From NCBI RefSeq assembly GCF_050320075.1, contig NZ_CP190018.1: 64,000 bases of DNA. One strand, written 5' to 3'. The stretch's first letter is position 1, and each line of letters begins with the position of its first letter. This document shows positions 792 to 27,932 of this stretch, in pieces. The DNA comes from Escherichia coli (lineage in GTDB: Bacteria > Pseudomonadota > Gammaproteobacteria > Enterobacterales > Enterobacteriaceae). The notes beneath the pieces were generated by a model. The model made no database searches. It was given only the letters and a program-made list of their open reading frames with translations, and was not told the DNA's origin. The position numbers and the translations under genes are program-made.

Positions 792-1607
792 ATGAGCAGA
801 CATGCAACAGATTGGGCCTGGGAGACAGATCCAGGTAGCTCATCATTAAAGCTCATACTGCTCTCGATGGCTGACAGAGCCGATGAATATAACCTCTGCT
901 ACCCCAGCATAGAACGCCTCGTTAAAGACACTTGCCTGAATAAAAAAACCGTGCAGGCCGGGCTTATATCGCTCATGAAAATGGGGCTTATTTCAGATAC
1001 CGGAGAGAGAAAGGGAGCGACAAAAAGAGTGCGGGTTTTCTCTCTTAATATAACCAAAAACGGGAACATTAAAGGCAACCGGGAAGGGGGTAATGAACCC
1101 GAAATCGGTAATGTTACCGAAAACGGGAATATACCCAAAAACGGGATGTTGAATGATCCCAAAAACGGGATGTTGAATGATCCCAAAAACGGGATCCAGA
1201 ACCAGTCATATAACCAGTCATTTAACCAAGAGAGGGAGAGCAGGACAAAAAGCGGGGATTCTGTGCCTCATGACCCCGGAGCAAACAACGCCGTGATGAA
1301 TAACTTTGTTCCTCCTGGTGGGCCAGGGCAATTAGGCAAATTTGTCATGCATGAACAATGGCAGCCATCAGATGACTTTCTTCGGAAAAGCTCATTGCAG
1401 GGGATCTACCTGGACAGTCTGCCAACGGCACAGGAACTTGCAGAGTTCAGAATTTACTGGATGGCTGAGGGTAAGGCATACCATCAGGCACAGTGGGAGC
1501 AGAAGCTGGCAAGGCGGCTGCAGATTAGCAGACAGAAGCAATCAACATTACCTGATAACAACGTTCCGCACTGGAACAGCCCTGAAGCATGGGAGGATTT
1601 CTTGTGA
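792..1607 (+). CDS. Replication initiator, lambda O-like (N-terminal winged-helix DNA-binding domain, iterons inside the gene)
   Basis: 271 aa; GGAG RBS; repeated peptide PKNGMLND encoded by tandem DNA repeats; immediately followed by the P-like gene. Confidence 0.7.
   Translation: MSRHATDWAWETDPGSSSLKLILLSMADRADEYNLCYPSIERLVKDTCLNKKTVQAGLISLMKMGLISDTGERKGATKRVRVFSLNITKNGNIKGNREGGNEPEIGNVTENGNIPKNGMLNDPKNGMLNDPKNGIQNQSYNQSFNQERESRTKSGDSVPHDPGANNAVMNNFVPPGGPGQLGKFVMHEQWQPSDDFLRKSSLQGIYLDSLPTAQELAEFRIYWMAEGKAYHQAQWEQKLARRLQISRQKQSTLPDNNVPHWNSPEAWEDFL
1054..1200. repeat. Iteron array (probable phage origin): two perfect 24-bp units CCCAAAAACGGGATGTTGAATGAT (1134-1157, 1158-1181), a third truncated unit (1182-1200), and degenerate copies at 1054-1068 and 1116-1130
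   Basis: Direct tandem repeats read in the sequence, followed by the short direct repeat ACCAGTCATATAACCAGTCATTTAACC. Confidence 0.7.
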
Positions 1608-2389
1608 ACAACGTTTTTACCGCGATACAAAACCGTGACGGAGAAGCCCTTTCTCGCATGTCAGGTTATGAGCATCAGTACGTCAACAATGACAATGTGG
1701 TGAACATGTCAGCAGAGAGGCTTGTTGATGCCCTTTTTAAACAGCTGAAACAACTGTTTCCGGCGGCAGTGGTAACCAACCTGAAGACGCCAGAGCAGGA
1801 AGTTGCTGCAAAACAGCAGTGGATTGCTGCGTTTGCCGAAGGGGGGATCCGAACCCGTGAACAGGTTTCTGCTGGTATGCGCCACGCCCGCGCCAGTGAA
1901 TCTCCGTTCTGGCCGTCTCCAGGGCAATTTATCAAGTGGTGCAAAGACAGCAAGATGGTTCTTGGCGTCACCATTGACGATGTGATGGCGGAGTTTCACC
2001 GGTACAGCAAGGAAAAAAGTTTATATCCTGGTGGTCCCGAAAGATTCCCGTGGCGACATCCGGTTATGTACTGGGTCGTATGTGATACCCGCCGTGCAAT
2101 GTATCAGCGCCAGCTTAGCGAGATTGAGGTTGAGAAACACGCACGCAGGCTGCTCGATGATTGGGCGAAAAAGGTGGCTTCCGGACAGCAGATACCCGAT
2201 CCGGTGATCAGCATACAGGCAAAGCCAGAGCCCATGAGTACGCCTCCGGACACAGGGAGAGACGTTTACCATCCACCAGGGCGAAGTTTCGGGTGCATGC
2301 CTAACGCCGCCACCCTTGGGGGAATAACACCGGCGCAGTGGCTGATGGAGGAATACAGGCGGGGAAAGGCGGCAGGATTTATCAAGTAA
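1589..2389 (+). CDS. Replication protein P-like (DnaB helicase loader); start 1589 or GTG 1605
   Basis: Matches my recollection of lambda P, e.g. QQWIAAFAEGGIRTREQVSAGMRHARASESPFWPSPGQFIKWCKD versus lambda RQWVLAFRENGITTMEQVNAGMRVARRQNRPFLPSPGQFVAWCRE. Confidence 0.8.
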   Translation: MGGFLVNNVFTAIQNRDGEALSRMSGYEHQYVNNDNVVNMSAERLVDALFKQLKQLFPAAVVTNLKTPEQEVAAKQQWIAAFAEGGIRTREQVSAGMRHARASESPFWPSPGQFIKWCKDSKMVLGVTIDDVMAEFHRYSKEKSLYPGGPERFPWRHPVMYWVVCDTRRAMYQRQLSEIEVEKHARRLLDDWAKKVASGQQIPDPVISIQAKPEPMSTPPDTGRDVYHPPGRSFGCMPNAATLGGITPAQWLMEEYRRGKAAGFIK

Positions 2390-2854: not shown

Positions 2855-2915
2855 ATCGACGATCTATTTAGTTATCAATGTAATCAATAAGTTATGTGGA
2901 TAAGCGAGGGTAAAG

Positions 2916-3482
2916 ATGGAAAGTAATATCAAAGGGTTAGTTGCCGCCGGGCATGAGATGGCTTCGGAACTGAAAGCAGAATGTGGTGCCGTTGATATGC
3001 GCAGTGTGGCAAAGCTGATCAGCGATTTGGCAACGCAACTGGAAGTGCAACTGGTGCGTGCTAATGCGCTGGCGGCGGAGAGTGCGGCAATGCATGAAAC
3101 TATTGAAGCCGTTCGGAGTGTTGCGGATAACTCCAGTGGAATTGCCGGATGGCATTTGAATGGCGATATCGCTACATGGGAAGAGATTCTTCCTGAAATT
3201 AACGATATCGAAACTCCAGCCACCGATGCTTTCCTGGCTGAAATTCGTGCGGAAGCACGCAACGAGGGGATTAACTATACCGCCAGCCGTCTTGCTGCTG
3301 CGTTCAATCACGGATTTATCAATAAATCTTTGCGTGAAGTTTTCGACGTTACACGCATGATTTTGTCAGCGAAAGAAGAGTTGGCTAATGAACCGCATCC
3401 GATTGATGGCCTGTCCGGTGAATATGCGGAGAAATCCCTTGAAGAATGGGCGGAACAGATTCGCAAAGGAGGCAAGCAGTGA
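2916..3482 (+). CDS. Hypothetical phage protein (nin-like region)
   Basis: 188 aa ORF, same strand, compact spacing. Confidence 0.5.
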   Translation: MESNIKGLVAAGHEMASELKAECGAVDMRSVAKLISDLATQLEVQLVRANALAAESAAMHETIEAVRSVADNSSGIAGWHLNGDIATWEEILPEINDIETPATDAFLAEIRAEARNEGINYTASRLAAAFNHGFINKSLREVFDVTRMILSAKEELANEPHPIDGLSGEYAEKSLEEWAEQIRKGGKQ

Positions 3483-8847: not shown

Positions 8848-8924
8848 TGGCGTGGCATGCAGGATTCGAACCTGCGACCAACCGCTTAGAAGGCGGTTGC
8901 TCTGTCCAACTGAGCTAATGCCAC
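8848..8924 (-). tRNA. tRNA-Arg (anticodon UCU, reads AGA), phage-borne
   Basis: Hand-folded cloverleaf: 7-bp acceptor stem GTGGCAT/ATGCCAC, D-stem GCTC/GAGC, anticodon stem ACCGC/GCGGT with loop CUUCUAA, T-arm GCAGG-TTCGAAT-CCTGC, encoded 3' CCA. Confidence 0.9.
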
Positions 8925-27664: not shown

Positions 27665-27932
27665 AGTGATCACCTTTGTAGTTAGGTTAATCACCACTAC
27701 CGACGCCAATCGGTTGGTGGTGAACTGTGCAGGGTTGGCGTAACCGGCTACAAAGGACCCGGCGCACCTTTCGGTGCCCCCACACAGCCCACCATAGAAT
27801 AGGTGCGCTTTACACATAAAAAAAACCGCTTATGCGGCATATGTGCCTCTGTAGTAACTCGGGACGCCAATCCCGGCACTGGATTTTGCCAGTGCCCGAT
27901 TACTATGGCACAAGAGGAGTGCGTTGTAAATT

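What the first reader, a model, noticed from the sequence alone, without database searches (positions are those of the whole stretch)
792..1607. Origin-like iteron array inside the O-like initiator gene
Tandem 24-bp direct repeats (two perfect, one partial, plus degenerate copies) centred at 1054-1200 encode a repeated PKNGMLND peptide linker. This mirrors lambda, where ori iterons sit inside gene O, so the phage origin is probably here.
Basis: partly seen in the sequence, partly recalled or inferred. Interest (0 to 1): 0.4.

Follow-up and report, generated by a model that had tools for sequence, protein, structure and literature searches.

The report
Phage replication origin repeats inside initiator gene
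The tandem repeats are real and are most likely the binding sites (iterons) of a prophage's replication origin, sitting inside the gene of the initiator protein that binds them, as in phages lambda and phi80; this is an unannotated but ordinary example of a textbook arrangement.

Summary
ORF 792-1607 of a phiV10-like E. coli prophage holds a perfect 24-bp x 2.6 tandem array at 1134-1195. It also holds three more degenerate copies of the same core. All six matches to CCNAAAWYGGK in the 64-kb window lie at 1054-1193, against about 1 expected.

The protein has a winged-helix N-domain (Pfam HTH_36), an ~89-residue linker predicted to be disordered, and a DnaT-like C-domain. A lambda-P-like helicase-loader gene follows it.

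The iteron reading is well supported by comparison:
- Sixteen diverse N-domain relatives (Vibrio, Edwardsiella, Acinetobacter, Burkholderia and sludge phages) carry the same 10-bp core at the same place. It is about 300-fold enriched there.
- The core is often read in two or three reading frames, so the constraint is on the DNA.
- The repeats follow the N-domain type, not the C-domain type.
- The annotated gp15-binding iterons of phi80 (TTCCCGAAAACGGGAA) share the core. One copy here is 15/16 identical.

Two points differ from lambda. There is no marked AT-rich tract; conserved GAAYC 10-13-nt repeats follow the last iteron instead. The protein is also not in the lambda O Pfam family.

No experiment maps this origin. 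Verdict: new member of a known kind, of modest interest.

The parts
792..1607 (+). Replication initiator gene (271 aa), equivalent to PhiV10p43. It contains the putative origin.
   Evidence: ORF list. Pfam HTH_36 at aa 18-67 and DnaT domain at aa 184-252. PHROG 1032, E=1.8e-107. phiV10 annotation.
792..1055 (+). N-terminal winged-helix DNA-binding domain (aa 1-88), the presumed iteron reader.
   Evidence: AlphaFold2 model with pLDDT 89.9, H-H-H-H plus a beta-hairpin wing. Only generic winged-helix matches in the PDB, including RepA_N-type plasmid initiators. All 16 relatives match HTH_36.
1059..1325 (+). Coding region for the linker predicted to be disordered (aa 90-178). It carries all the repeats.
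   Evidence: Full-length AlphaFold2 model: pLDDT about 30 and no secondary structure for aa 90-178, between two confident domains.
1051..1066 (+). Iteron 1, TAACCAAAAACGGGAA (degenerate dyad).
1096..1111 (+). Iteron 2, AACCCGAAATCGGTAA. It carries a private A>T change at 1105; 45 of 46 same-length alleles have A.
1114..1129 (+). Iteron 3, TTACCGAAAACGGGAA. It is 15/16 identical to the phi80 gp15-binding iteron TTCCCGAAAACGGGAA.
1132..1147 (+). Iteron 4, TACCCAAAAACGGGAT.
1156..1171 (+). Iteron 5, ATCCCAAAAACGGGAT. Perfect dyad ATCCC/GGGAT; GATC at 1155.
1180..1195 (+). Iteron 6, ATCCCAAAAACGGGAT. Perfect dyad; GATC at 1179 and 1193.
1134..1195 (+). Copy number is 2-6 in close relatives.
1196..1235 (+). 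CAGAACCAGTCATATAACCAGTCATTTAACCAAG: 12-bp (G/T)AACCAGTCAT repeats directly after the last iteron. They are conserved as GAAYC/GACA-type 10-13-nt repeats in all relatives. Candidate unwinding element (inferred).
   Evidence: TRF; 14 loci plus lambda; phi80. Different reading frames in Vibrio phage H20. Third least stable 40-mer in the gene, but only 40% GC.
1341..1547 (+). DnaT-like C-terminal domain (aa 184-252). Presumed contact for ssDNA and for P-DnaB.
   Evidence: Pfam PF17948, E=1.2e-15. E. coli DnaT structures 9zbt, 6aep, 4ou6, E about 1e-20.
1604..2389 (+). Lambda-P-like helicase loader gene. The GTG start at 1604 overlaps the initiator's stop; an alternative ATG lies at 1589.
   Evidence: Pfam PF06992, E=1.5e-56. 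PHROG 109, 'P-like helicase loader'. phiV10 and RefSeq annotation.

Best explanation
Window 1 to about 36.8 kb is a phiV10-like (Uetakevirus) prophage of E. coli. Its early rightward operon encodes an initiator (792-1607) and a lambda-P-like helicase loader (1604-2389).

The six copies of the 16-bp dyad element (consensus ATCCC-AAAAAC-GGGAT, core CCRAWWWYGG) at 1051-1195 are the iterons of the phage origin.

Proposed steps, all inferred by analogy with lambda and phi80:
1. Dimers of the initiator's own N-terminal winged-helix domain bind each iteron, with half-sites about one helical turn apart.
2. The array, spaced 18-45 bp with an A5 tract in every copy, is wrapped into an O-some-like complex.
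3. The adjacent DNA is destabilised. The most likely stretch is the GAAYC 12-mer repeats at 1196-1235.
4. The DnaT-like C-domain, tethered by the ~89-residue disordered linker, holds the single strand and/or docks the P-DnaB complex, so that the host helicase is loaded.

Shown here: the anatomy, the DNA-level conservation, the co-variation with the N-domain, and the identity of the core with the annotated phi80 iterons. Inferred: binding, unwinding, helicase loading and origin activity.

Because the iterons lie in a linker with little protein-level constraint, slippage freely changes their number among otherwise near-identical prophages (24-mer 2-6 copies, 18-mer 1-3, 12-mer 1-3).
For: 1. Repeats and chance. 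24-bp x 2.6 at 100% identity. Six of six core matches in 64 kb lie at 1054-1193, against 1.07 expected.

2. Gene identity and context. HTH_36 plus DnaT domain, followed by lambda P, downstream of a repressor and cro-like immunity region.

3. Position. The repeats lie between two folded domains in a segment with pLDDT about 30. This is the same relative position as the annotated lambda iterons.

4. Deep conservation of the DNA motif. In 16 dereplicated loci whose N-domains are 43-57% identical to this one, CCRAWWWYGG occurs 59 times in the codon 81-175 windows (12.9/kb). Elsewhere it occurs 5 times in 118 kb (0.04/kb). In 9 of the 14 loci with hits it is read in 2-3 different frames, for example TQKRE, PKNG and PKTE (sequences).

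5. Co-variation.
- Edwardsiella phage GF-2 has this N-domain type with a C-terminal region that resembles lambda O's by eye, and keeps GATCCCAAAATTGGGAT iterons.
- TL-2011b, SPN1S and Tyrion share the DnaT-like C-domain (all three) and the P-like loader (Tyrion, annotated by its depositors). Their N-domains differ and they lack the motif.

6. phi80. Four sites annotated as gp15-bound, TTCCCGAAAACGGGAA, lie inside gene 15. They have the same core and are followed by GAACAAGAACAG.

7. Polymorphism. Among 46 same-length alleles the core positions have pi 0.0049 and the non-core positions of the array 0.031. The difference holds at third codon positions.

8. An 8.46-kb circular E. coli plasmid record (NZ_CP148379.1) has an initiator of this family plus P as its only replication genes. 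Its only four core motifs lie inside the initiator gene.

9. Variation in iteron number is known in lambdoid origins: 4 in lambda and 6 in Stx phages, all needed for replication (PMC7466680).
Against: No experimental origin mapping or binding data exist for phiV10-like phages in the literature I could search.

The lambda-type AT-rich tract is missing. The 40 bp after the last iteron are 40% GC, and the least stable 40-mer of the gene (1035-1074, 30% GC) lies on the other side of the array. More AT-rich DNA lies in intergenic gaps at 2400-2520 and 2860-2905, the latter with a perfect DnaA box.

Sequence homology of the N-domain to lambda O and phi80 gp15 is not significant in my tests: hhalign probability 2% and 11%, and 4 of 16 relatives give weak Phage_rep_O hits.

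The motif was defined on part of the comparison set. The enrichment figure is therefore partly circular for those loci; L102-L150 were fetched after the motif was fixed.

The lower diversity of the cores could partly reflect concerted evolution of tandem copies.

The small circular plasmid record could be an assembly artefact.
Confidence: 0.8

Rival explanations
1. The repeats are initiator-binding sites, but they serve regulation rather than origin firing. Examples are autoregulation or roadblock of the early operon, titration, or handcuffing. Unwinding and initiation would then occur elsewhere, for example in the AT-rich gaps at 2400-2520 or 2860-2905.
For: There is no strong AT-rich tract next to the array. 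The intergenic 40-mers at 2438-2477 and 2864-2903 are much less stable, and a perfect DnaA box lies at 2895-2903. In iteron plasmids, iterons also act in copy-number control (general knowledge; PMC4980987 is listed).
Against: In lambda and phi80, the characterised relatives with the same core and position, the iterons are the origin. The GAAYC repeats next to the last iteron are conserved at the DNA level in all 14 relatives that carry the motif, which suggests a second cis element exactly where lambda unwinds. No iteron-like copy lies near any promoter or anywhere else in the window.
Confidence: 0.1
2. The repeats are only a slippage-generated, low-complexity flexible linker (the PKNGMLND peptide) with no function at the DNA level.
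For: The segment is predicted to be disordered. Copy number varies freely among near-identical prophages, and all variants stay in frame. In this window all six copies share one reading frame.
Against: The same 10-bp DNA core is read in 2-3 frames, giving unrelated peptides, in 9 of the 14 diverse relatives that carry it. It persists between phages of gamma- and betaproteobacteria whose N-domains are 43-57% identical. It is a dyad. It tracks the DNA-binding domain and not the rest of the protein. It matches the annotated phi80 gp15-binding sites. Core positions are less polymorphic than spacers, including at third codon positions.
Confidence: 0.06
3. The array is bound mainly by a host factor rather than by the phage initiator. 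One candidate is SeqA on the clustered GATC sites. Another is a DNA-bending protein on the A-tracts.
For: Three GATC sites lie within 40 bp (1155, 1179, 1193), and there would be more in alleles with more 24-mers. Every copy has an A5 tract.
Against: The GATC is not conserved in relatives: Vibrio phage H20 has AGGCCC, and Bcep176 and the EBPR phage have GTCCC, while the CCRAWWWYGG core is conserved. Other places in the window have 3-4 GATC in 60 bp. No DnaA box lies within the array.
Confidence: 0.03

Closest known systems
Phage phi80 origin inside gene 15 (gp15 is the O analogue, gp14 the P analogue)
   Same: Four annotated gp15-binding sites, TTCCCGAAAACGGGAA, lie in the middle of the initiator gene. 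They have the same CCRAWWWYGG core and the same 16-bp dyad size. One copy here is 15/16 identical. Both are followed by short GAAC-type repeats and by a P-like loader gene.
   Different: The gp15 N-domain is Pfam Phage_rep_O, not HTH_36, and profile comparison is not significant. By eye, gp15's C-terminal region resembles lambda O's, not DnaT. Spacing in phi80 is a regular 20-21 bp in shifting frames. Here it is 18 or 24 bp, in frame.
Phage lambda ori-lambda inside gene O, with the O-some, P and DnaB
   Same: The origin lies in the middle of the initiator gene, between the DNA-binding N-domain and the C-domain. There are 4 or more dyad iterons with ATCCC...GGGA arms around an A-tract. The P gene lies immediately downstream.
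   Different: Lambda iterons are 18 bp, with about 3 more bases between the CCC and GGG blocks. Lambda has a 40-bp AT-rich tract that is not seen here. Both protein domains belong to other Pfam families.
Stx-phage origins (933W, P27) with six iterons
   Same: Natural variation in iteron number within one origin type; the extra iterons are needed for replication (PMC7466680).
   Different: Those are true lambda-O-family initiators. Here the copy number varies far more, with 41 distinct repeat regions among 77 close relatives.
DopC/DopE of Cellvibrionales and Oceanospirillales (Brezellec et al. 2017, PMC5509034)
   Same: The same two-gene architecture: an HTH_36 plus DnaT-C 'O-like' protein followed by a lambda-P-like protein.
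   Different: dopC is a domesticated chromosomal gene in which the authors found no iteron-like sequences. The phage gene here has them, as expected for the ancestral, origin-bearing form.
Iteron plasmids (RK2 TrfA, F RepE) with repeated 13-mers in the unwinding element
   Same: A winged-helix initiator, directly repeated binding sites, and next to them short repeats that the Rep protein binds as single-stranded DNA (PMC4081077). This is a possible model for the GAAYC repeats.
   Different: Plasmid Reps have two winged-helix domains, and their iterons lie outside the rep gene. The fold search gave only generic winged-helix matches.

Membership tests
Lambdoid origin embedded in the initiator gene (ori-lambda / ori-phi80 type) | The initiator gene lies directly upstream of the helicase-loader gene in the early operon next to the immunity region. 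| tested here: met
   ORFs 792-1607 and 1604-2389; Pfam lambda P, E=1.5e-56. Repressor and cro-like genes lie upstream in phiV10.
Lambdoid origin embedded in the initiator gene (ori-lambda / ori-phi80 type) | Four or more direct repeats of about 16-19 bp with internal dyad symmetry, in the middle of the gene between the N- and C-domains. | tested here: met
   Six copies at 1051-1195, three of them with ATCCC/GGGAT-type arms. They lie inside the linker predicted to be disordered. Relative position is 32-49% of the gene, against 39-48% in lambda.
Lambdoid origin embedded in the initiator gene (ori-lambda / ori-phi80 type) | The repeat sequence resembles iterons annotated as initiator-bound in a characterised lambdoid phage. 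| tested here: met
   The sites annotated as gp15-bound in phi80, TTCCCGAAAACGGGAA, against TTACCGAAAACGGGAA here at 1114-1129. The lambda iterons share ATCCC...AAAAC...GGGA but have a longer spacer.
Lambdoid origin embedded in the initiator gene (ori-lambda / ori-phi80 type) | An AT-rich unwinding tract (about 40 bp, well below local GC content) directly to the right of the iterons. | tested here: not met
   1193-1232 is 40% GC (4th percentile of stability in the window). In 14 relatives the 60 nt after the last iteron are mostly only 0-9 points below gene GC (two loci are above it). GAAYC repeats occupy the place.
Lambdoid origin embedded in the initiator gene (ori-lambda / ori-phi80 type) | The initiator binds the iterons, and the fragment supports replication when O and P are supplied. 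| not testable with these tools
   This needs EMSA or footprinting and a replication assay. The only indirect hint is an 8.46-kb circular plasmid record carrying just this module.
Lambda O protein family (Pfam Phage_rep_O PF04492, with the lambda O C-terminal domain) | The N-domain matches PF04492 above its curated cut-off. | tested here: not met
   Only HTH_36 is found. Four of 16 relatives give sub-threshold Phage_rep_O hits, best E=0.0087. hhalign probability is 2% against lambda O and 11% against phi80 gp15.
Lambda O protein family (Pfam Phage_rep_O PF04492, with the lambda O C-terminal domain) | A lambda-O-type C-terminal (P-binding) domain. | tested here: not met
   The C-domain is DnaT-like (PF17948; E. 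coli DnaT structures at E about 1e-20).
HTH_36 + DnaT-C 'O-like' initiators (PHROG 1032; phage counterpart of DopC) | An HTH_36 N-domain and a DnaT-like C-domain in one protein. | tested here: met
   PF13730, E=1.8e-10, and PF17948, E=1.2e-15. PHROG 1032 over the full length, E=1.8e-107.
HTH_36 + DnaT-C 'O-like' initiators (PHROG 1032; phage counterpart of DopC) | A lambda-P-like gene immediately downstream. | tested here: met
   PF06992 and PHROG 109. The architecture is described in PMC5509034.
Iteron-plasmid Rep proteins (RepA, RepE, pi, TrfA) | Two tandem winged-helix domains, with iterons outside the rep gene. | tested here: not met
   There is one winged-helix domain. The fold search found only generic winged-helix matches at E>=0.006. 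The iterons lie inside the gene.

The most novel reading that the evidence does not exclude
The array may be one instance of a conserved two-part origin 'cassette' that travels with the winged-helix N-domain of phage initiators across Proteobacteria.

Part 1 is the CCRAWWWYGG dyad iterons. The same core is used by two Pfam families (HTH_36 here, Phage_rep_O in phi80).

Part 2 is a fixed junction, GGGAYMCR-GAAYC, followed by 2-4 GAAYC/GAACA repeats at 10-13-nt spacing. These would replace the classical AT-rich tract and act as a sequence-specific unwinding or single-strand-binding element, like the 13-mers of the RK2 unwinding element.

The slippage-driven variation in iteron number (5-9 cores among near-identical prophages) could then tune replication or incompatibility between co-resident prophages.
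Probability: 0.3. Interest if true: 0.45.

Novelty: new member of a known kind. Interest (0 to 1): 0.28.

Why it matters
It places the replication origin of the phiV10/Uetakevirus-type prophages, where neither RefSeq nor GenBank annotates one. These prophages are present in about 8% of complete E. coli genomes and are used as O157 reporter phages.

It also gives a simple sequence rule for finding origins in many uncharacterised phages that have HTH_36-type initiators: the CCRAWWWYGG cluster right after the winged-helix domain, followed by GAAYC repeats.

It suggests that the iteron recognition mode is shared between the lambda/phi80 O family and the HTH_36 initiators. It also shows the ancestral, iteron-bearing form of the domesticated DopC/DopE helicase-loading pair.

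Conceptually it repeats the textbook lambda arrangement, so the gain is in annotation and comparison rather than a new mechanism.

Tried and rejected
1. Sequence homology of the N-domain to lambda O and phi80 gp15. hhalign gave probabilities of 2% and 11%. Homology is therefore not claimed from my data; PMC5509034 reports it from HHpred.

2. Fold search of the N-domain model against the PDB. It found only generic winged-helix proteins at E>=0.006 and no specific initiator match.

3. A lambda-like AT-rich tract, DnaA boxes, promoters and terminators around the array.
- No strong AT tract was found.
- The only DnaA-box-like sites are at 1603 (one mismatch) and 2895 (perfect), both outside the array.
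- Promoter and terminator counts are at chance level. The two minus-strand 'terminators' at 1142-1185 are just the inverted arms of neighbouring iterons.

4. The first IMG/VR scan returned only near-identical loci. It was useful for copy-number variation but not for diversity. An eight-sequence alignment was too divergent to scan with. A second scan with Bcep176 as first sequence gave 9 clusters.

5. Literature searches for a mapped phiV10 origin or for iterons with HTH_36/DnaT-type initiators found nothing specific.

6. -1 frameshifting on CCCAAAAAC was considered. In this frame the sequence does not fit the X XXY YYZ pattern, so it was dropped.

7. Two relatives lack the core. Moraxella phage Mcat8 has a different repeat, GGGGGTACAATTTTGCA. 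L136 has no matches to the core; other repeat types were not looked for in it. The rule is therefore not universal.
Full report
**Where the finding sits.** The first ~36.8 kb of the window is a phiV10-like temperate podovirus prophage of E. coli (genus Uetakevirus). Window 1-18,640 matches phiv142-3, EC.W1-9, PAS61 and phiV10 at 97-99% identity. Phage similarity continues to about 36.8 kb.
- ORF 792-1607 corresponds to PhiV10p43, annotated 'replication initiation protein'. It lies downstream of the repressor and cro-like genes and upstream of PhiV10p44, 'replication protein P'.
- The same gene, at 90-100% identity, is present in 423 of 5426 complete E. coli genomes. There it is annotated 'DnaT-like ssDNA-binding domain-containing protein'.
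- No record I looked at annotates an origin here.

**Check of the observation.**
- Tandem Repeats Finder reports a 24-bp unit at 1134-1195 (2.6 copies, 100% identity, score 124) and a 12-bp unit at 1200-1228. The 24-bp array is the strongest tandem repeat in the whole window.
- The repeat finder adds degenerate copies further left and an 18-bp pair at 1089-1124.
- The shared core CCNAAAWYGGK occurs six times in 64 kb on both strands, all at 1054-1193 on the + strand. Dinucleotide-preserving shuffles give 1.07, and none of 100 reaches six.
- With flanks, the copies are 16-mers at 1051, 1096, 1114, 1132, 1156 and 1180. The three rightmost are dyads, (T/A)(A/T)CCC-AAAAAC-GGGAT.
- In the gene's frame they encode TKNGN / PEIGN / TENGN / PKNGM-LND / PKNGM-LND / PKNGI.

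**The protein.**
- Pfam finds HTH_36 (aa 18-67) and the DnaT DNA-binding domain (aa 184-252).
- The C-domain matches solved E. coli DnaT structures at E about 1e-20.
- PHROGs places the whole protein in phrog_1032, 'replication initiation protein'. The N-terminal half also hits several 'replication initiation O-like' families.
- An AlphaFold2 model of the N-domain is confident (pLDDT 90) and is a winged helix. The PDB fold search returns only generic winged-helix proteins, among them RepA_N-type plasmid initiators.
- The full-length model has two confident domains (aa 1-89 and 179-252) joined by an 89-residue segment with pLDDT about 30 and no secondary structure.
- All the repeats lie in the DNA that encodes this predicted disordered linker.
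- The next gene is a lambda-P-like helicase loader (PF06992, E=1.5e-56; phrog_109).

**Is the constraint on the DNA or on the peptide?** This was the key question, and relatives answer it.
- tblastn against phage genomes finds N-domain homologues at about 40-50% identity in Vibrio anguillarum phages (H20 group), Edwardsiella GF-2, Acinetobacter AP22, LZ35 and Ab105-2phi, Burkholderia Bcep176, an uncultured EBPR-sludge podovirus and the E. coli PPompW prophages.
- Each carries a cluster of the same motif directly after the winged-helix domain. Examples are AGGCCCGAAAACGGTACTTTGAAT x4-5 in H20, GATCCCAAAATTGGGATTTTGAAT x3 in GF-2, and six GTCCCGAAAACGGGAC-like copies in the EBPR phage.
- A second IMG/VR scan added seven further clusters.
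- Over 16 dereplicated loci, the 10-bp core CCRAWWWYGG occurs 59 times in the codon 81-175 windows (12.9 per kb). Elsewhere in the loci it occurs 5 times in 118 kb on both strands (0.04 per kb).
- In 9 of the 14 loci that have the core, it is read in two or three different reading frames. The same DNA then gives TQKRE, PKNG or PKTE. A peptide-level constraint cannot explain that.
- The motif was derived from part of this set, so the enrichment is partly circular there. The loci of the second scan were fetched afterwards and behave the same way.
- Among 46 distinct same-length alleles of the close relatives, core positions are about six times less diverse than the other positions of the array (pi 0.0049 against 0.031). 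This holds at third codon positions too. Concerted evolution of tandem copies could contribute to it.

**Co-variation with the DNA-binding domain.**
- GF-2 combines this N-domain type with a C-terminal region that, by eye, resembles lambda O's, and it keeps the CCCAAAATTGGG iterons.
- TL-2011b, SPN1S and Tyrion share the DnaT-like C-domain, and Tyrion also the P-like loader (as annotated by its depositors). Their N-domains are unrelated and they have no such motif. They carry other short repeats in the equivalent place.
- The repeats therefore follow the N-domain, as expected if that domain reads them.

**Link to characterised origins.**
- The lambda record annotates four iterons (ATCCCTCAAAACGAGGGA and variants) at 39-48% of gene O. 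The array here spans 32-49% of its gene.
- The phi80 record annotates four gp15-binding sites inside gene 15: AACCGGAAACGGGAA, TTCCCGAAAACGGGAA, TTCCCGAAATCAGGAA and TTCCCGAAAACGGTA.
- These sites have the same core and the same 16-bp dyad size as the repeats here. The copy at 1114-1129 (TTACCGAAAACGGGAA) differs from the second phi80 iteron at one position.
- phi80 gp15 is nevertheless a Phage_rep_O protein. My profile comparisons with lambda O and gp15 are not significant, although they align the helix-turn-helix at equivalent positions. Four of 16 relatives give weak Phage_rep_O hits.
- Brezellec et al. describe the HTH_36 + DnaT-C / lambda-P-like pair as O/P-like by HHpred. They found no iterons in the domesticated bacterial version, dopC (PMC5509034).
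- The phage gene here looks like the origin-bearing form of that architecture.

**What differs from lambda.**
- There is no conspicuous AT-rich tract. The 40-mer after the last iteron (1193-1232) is 40% GC.
- The least stable 40-mer of the gene (1035-1074, 30% GC) lies at the left edge of the array. Intergenic DNA nearby is less stable still.
- Instead, every relative with the motif shows a fixed junction after the last iteron, GGGAY-MCR-GAAYC, followed by 2-4 GAAYC/GAACA elements 10-13 nt apart.
- Here that is CAGAACCAGTCATATAACCAGTCATTTAACCAAG. In H20 it is CAGAACCAGTCATTAGAACCAGTCATAGAACCAAG, read in shifting frames. In Bcep176 it is GAACAGTAG x4. In phi80 it is GAACAAGAACAG.
- I propose these repeats as the unwinding or single-strand-binding element. 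The analogy is the repeated 13-mers that plasmid Rep proteins bind in the RK2 unwinding element (PMC4081077). This step is inference only.

**Copy-number variation.**
- Close relatives differ in the number of each unit. The gene is mostly 792-888 bp long. There are 2-6 24-mers, one to three 18-mers and 1-3 12-mers.
- Among 77 IMG/VR relatives there are 41 distinct repeat regions. The 816-bp form of this window is the commonest.
- Lambdoid origins are known to vary in this way: 4 iterons in lambda and 6 in Stx phages, with the extra ones required for replication (PMC7466680).

**Indirect hints of autonomous replication.**
- An 8,461-bp circular E. coli plasmid record carries dicA/cro/ydaT, an initiator of this family and P as its only replication genes. 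Its only four core motifs lie inside the initiator gene.
- Two 41-kb circular 'plasmid' records are whole phiV10-like genomes.
- Either kind of record could be an assembly product, so I give them little weight.

**Verdict.** I put 0.8 on the repeats being initiator-binding iterons of the prophage's origin. The main rival, at 0.1, is that they are bound by the initiator for regulation while initiation happens elsewhere. A purely protein-level linker (0.06) and a host-factor site (0.03) fit the comparative data poorly. This is a new, unannotated member of the lambdoid origin-inside-the-initiator kind. The only moderately new aspects are the shared iteron core across two initiator families and the GAAYC element that replaces the AT-rich tract.

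Noticed in passing
window 96, 144, 481, 2427, 2489, 6082, 6100, 9248, 26878, 27932, 28313 (also 37481, 46622, 50002, 58974): The 15-bp palindrome TTACC-N5-GGTAA (at most 1 mismatch) occurs 15 times, against 1.07 expected; 0 of 100 shuffles reach 15. Several of the sites at the left end of the window lie in gaps between ORFs of the prophage: the immunity region, and before the ORFs at 513/576 and 2507. It looks like a phage-wide operator for a repressor or regulator. Its spacing is one base shorter than in the iterons.
   Followed up: partly
window 2895-2903 (- strand): A perfect DnaA box, TTATCCACA, lies in the AT-rich gap before ORF 2916-3482, about 1.7 kb right of the iterons. It could be a host DnaA input to early transcription or replication.
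   Followed up: no
window 27713-27799 (-) and 27819-27895 (-): Rfam matches above gathering score to C4 antisense RNA (79.5 bits) and to the isrK Hfq-binding RNA (74.2 bits), side by side inside the prophage. TL-2011b, which matches this part of the window, annotates an anti-repressor. This suggests a P1/P7-style antisense immunity module.
   Followed up: no
window 8848-8924 (- strand): A tRNA-Arg (anticodon TCT) gene lies inside the prophage, on the strand opposite to the surrounding phage genes.
   Followed up: no
window 1155, 1179, 1193: Three Dam sites (GATC) within 40 bp, one per 24-mer iteron. Alleles with more 24-mers would have more. The GATC is not conserved in distant relatives. A possible link to SeqA or methylation was not tested.
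   Followed up: partly
window 1105: This window's second iteron carries a private A>T change (CCCGAAATCGG, peptide PEIGN instead of PENGN). It is found in 1 of 46 distinct same-length alleles.
   Followed up: yes
window 1142-1161 and 1166-1185 (- strand): Two terminator-like hairpins, each followed by a T-run, on the antisense strand. They are formed by the facing arms of neighbouring iterons (GGGAT...ATCCC followed by TTTTT). They are probably a by-product of the repeat, but they could stop antisense transcription.
   Followed up: no
L181 (NZ_CP148379.1, 8461 bp, circular); NZ_CP079771.1 and NZ_CP079768.1 (41,027 bp, circular): A small circular E. coli 'plasmid' record consists of dicA, cro, ydaT, an initiator of this family, P and a few cargo genes. 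It resembles a natural lambda-dv-like replicon. Two 41-kb 'plasmids' are complete phiV10-like genomes. Whether these are real episomes or assembly products was not checked.
   Followed up: partly
L002 (phage BP9, PP488543.1, 133.4-137.2 kb): A 138-kb Vequintavirus (rV5-like, lytic) record ends with a phiV10-like repressor, initiator and P module at 96% identity. This is probably an assembly chimera or host-prophage contamination. The 115-kb 'phage PH444' record shows the same.
   Followed up: no
L098 (Moraxella phage Mcat8), gene at 1501-2619: The most distant N-domain relative (30% identity) has a different and longer repeat system in the same place: GGGGGTACAATTTTGCA and GGGGGTGCAAAAATGATACCCC units encoding KGGTILH/ERGCKNDTP. 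It is a likely example of iteron and initiator specificity drifting together.
   Followed up: no
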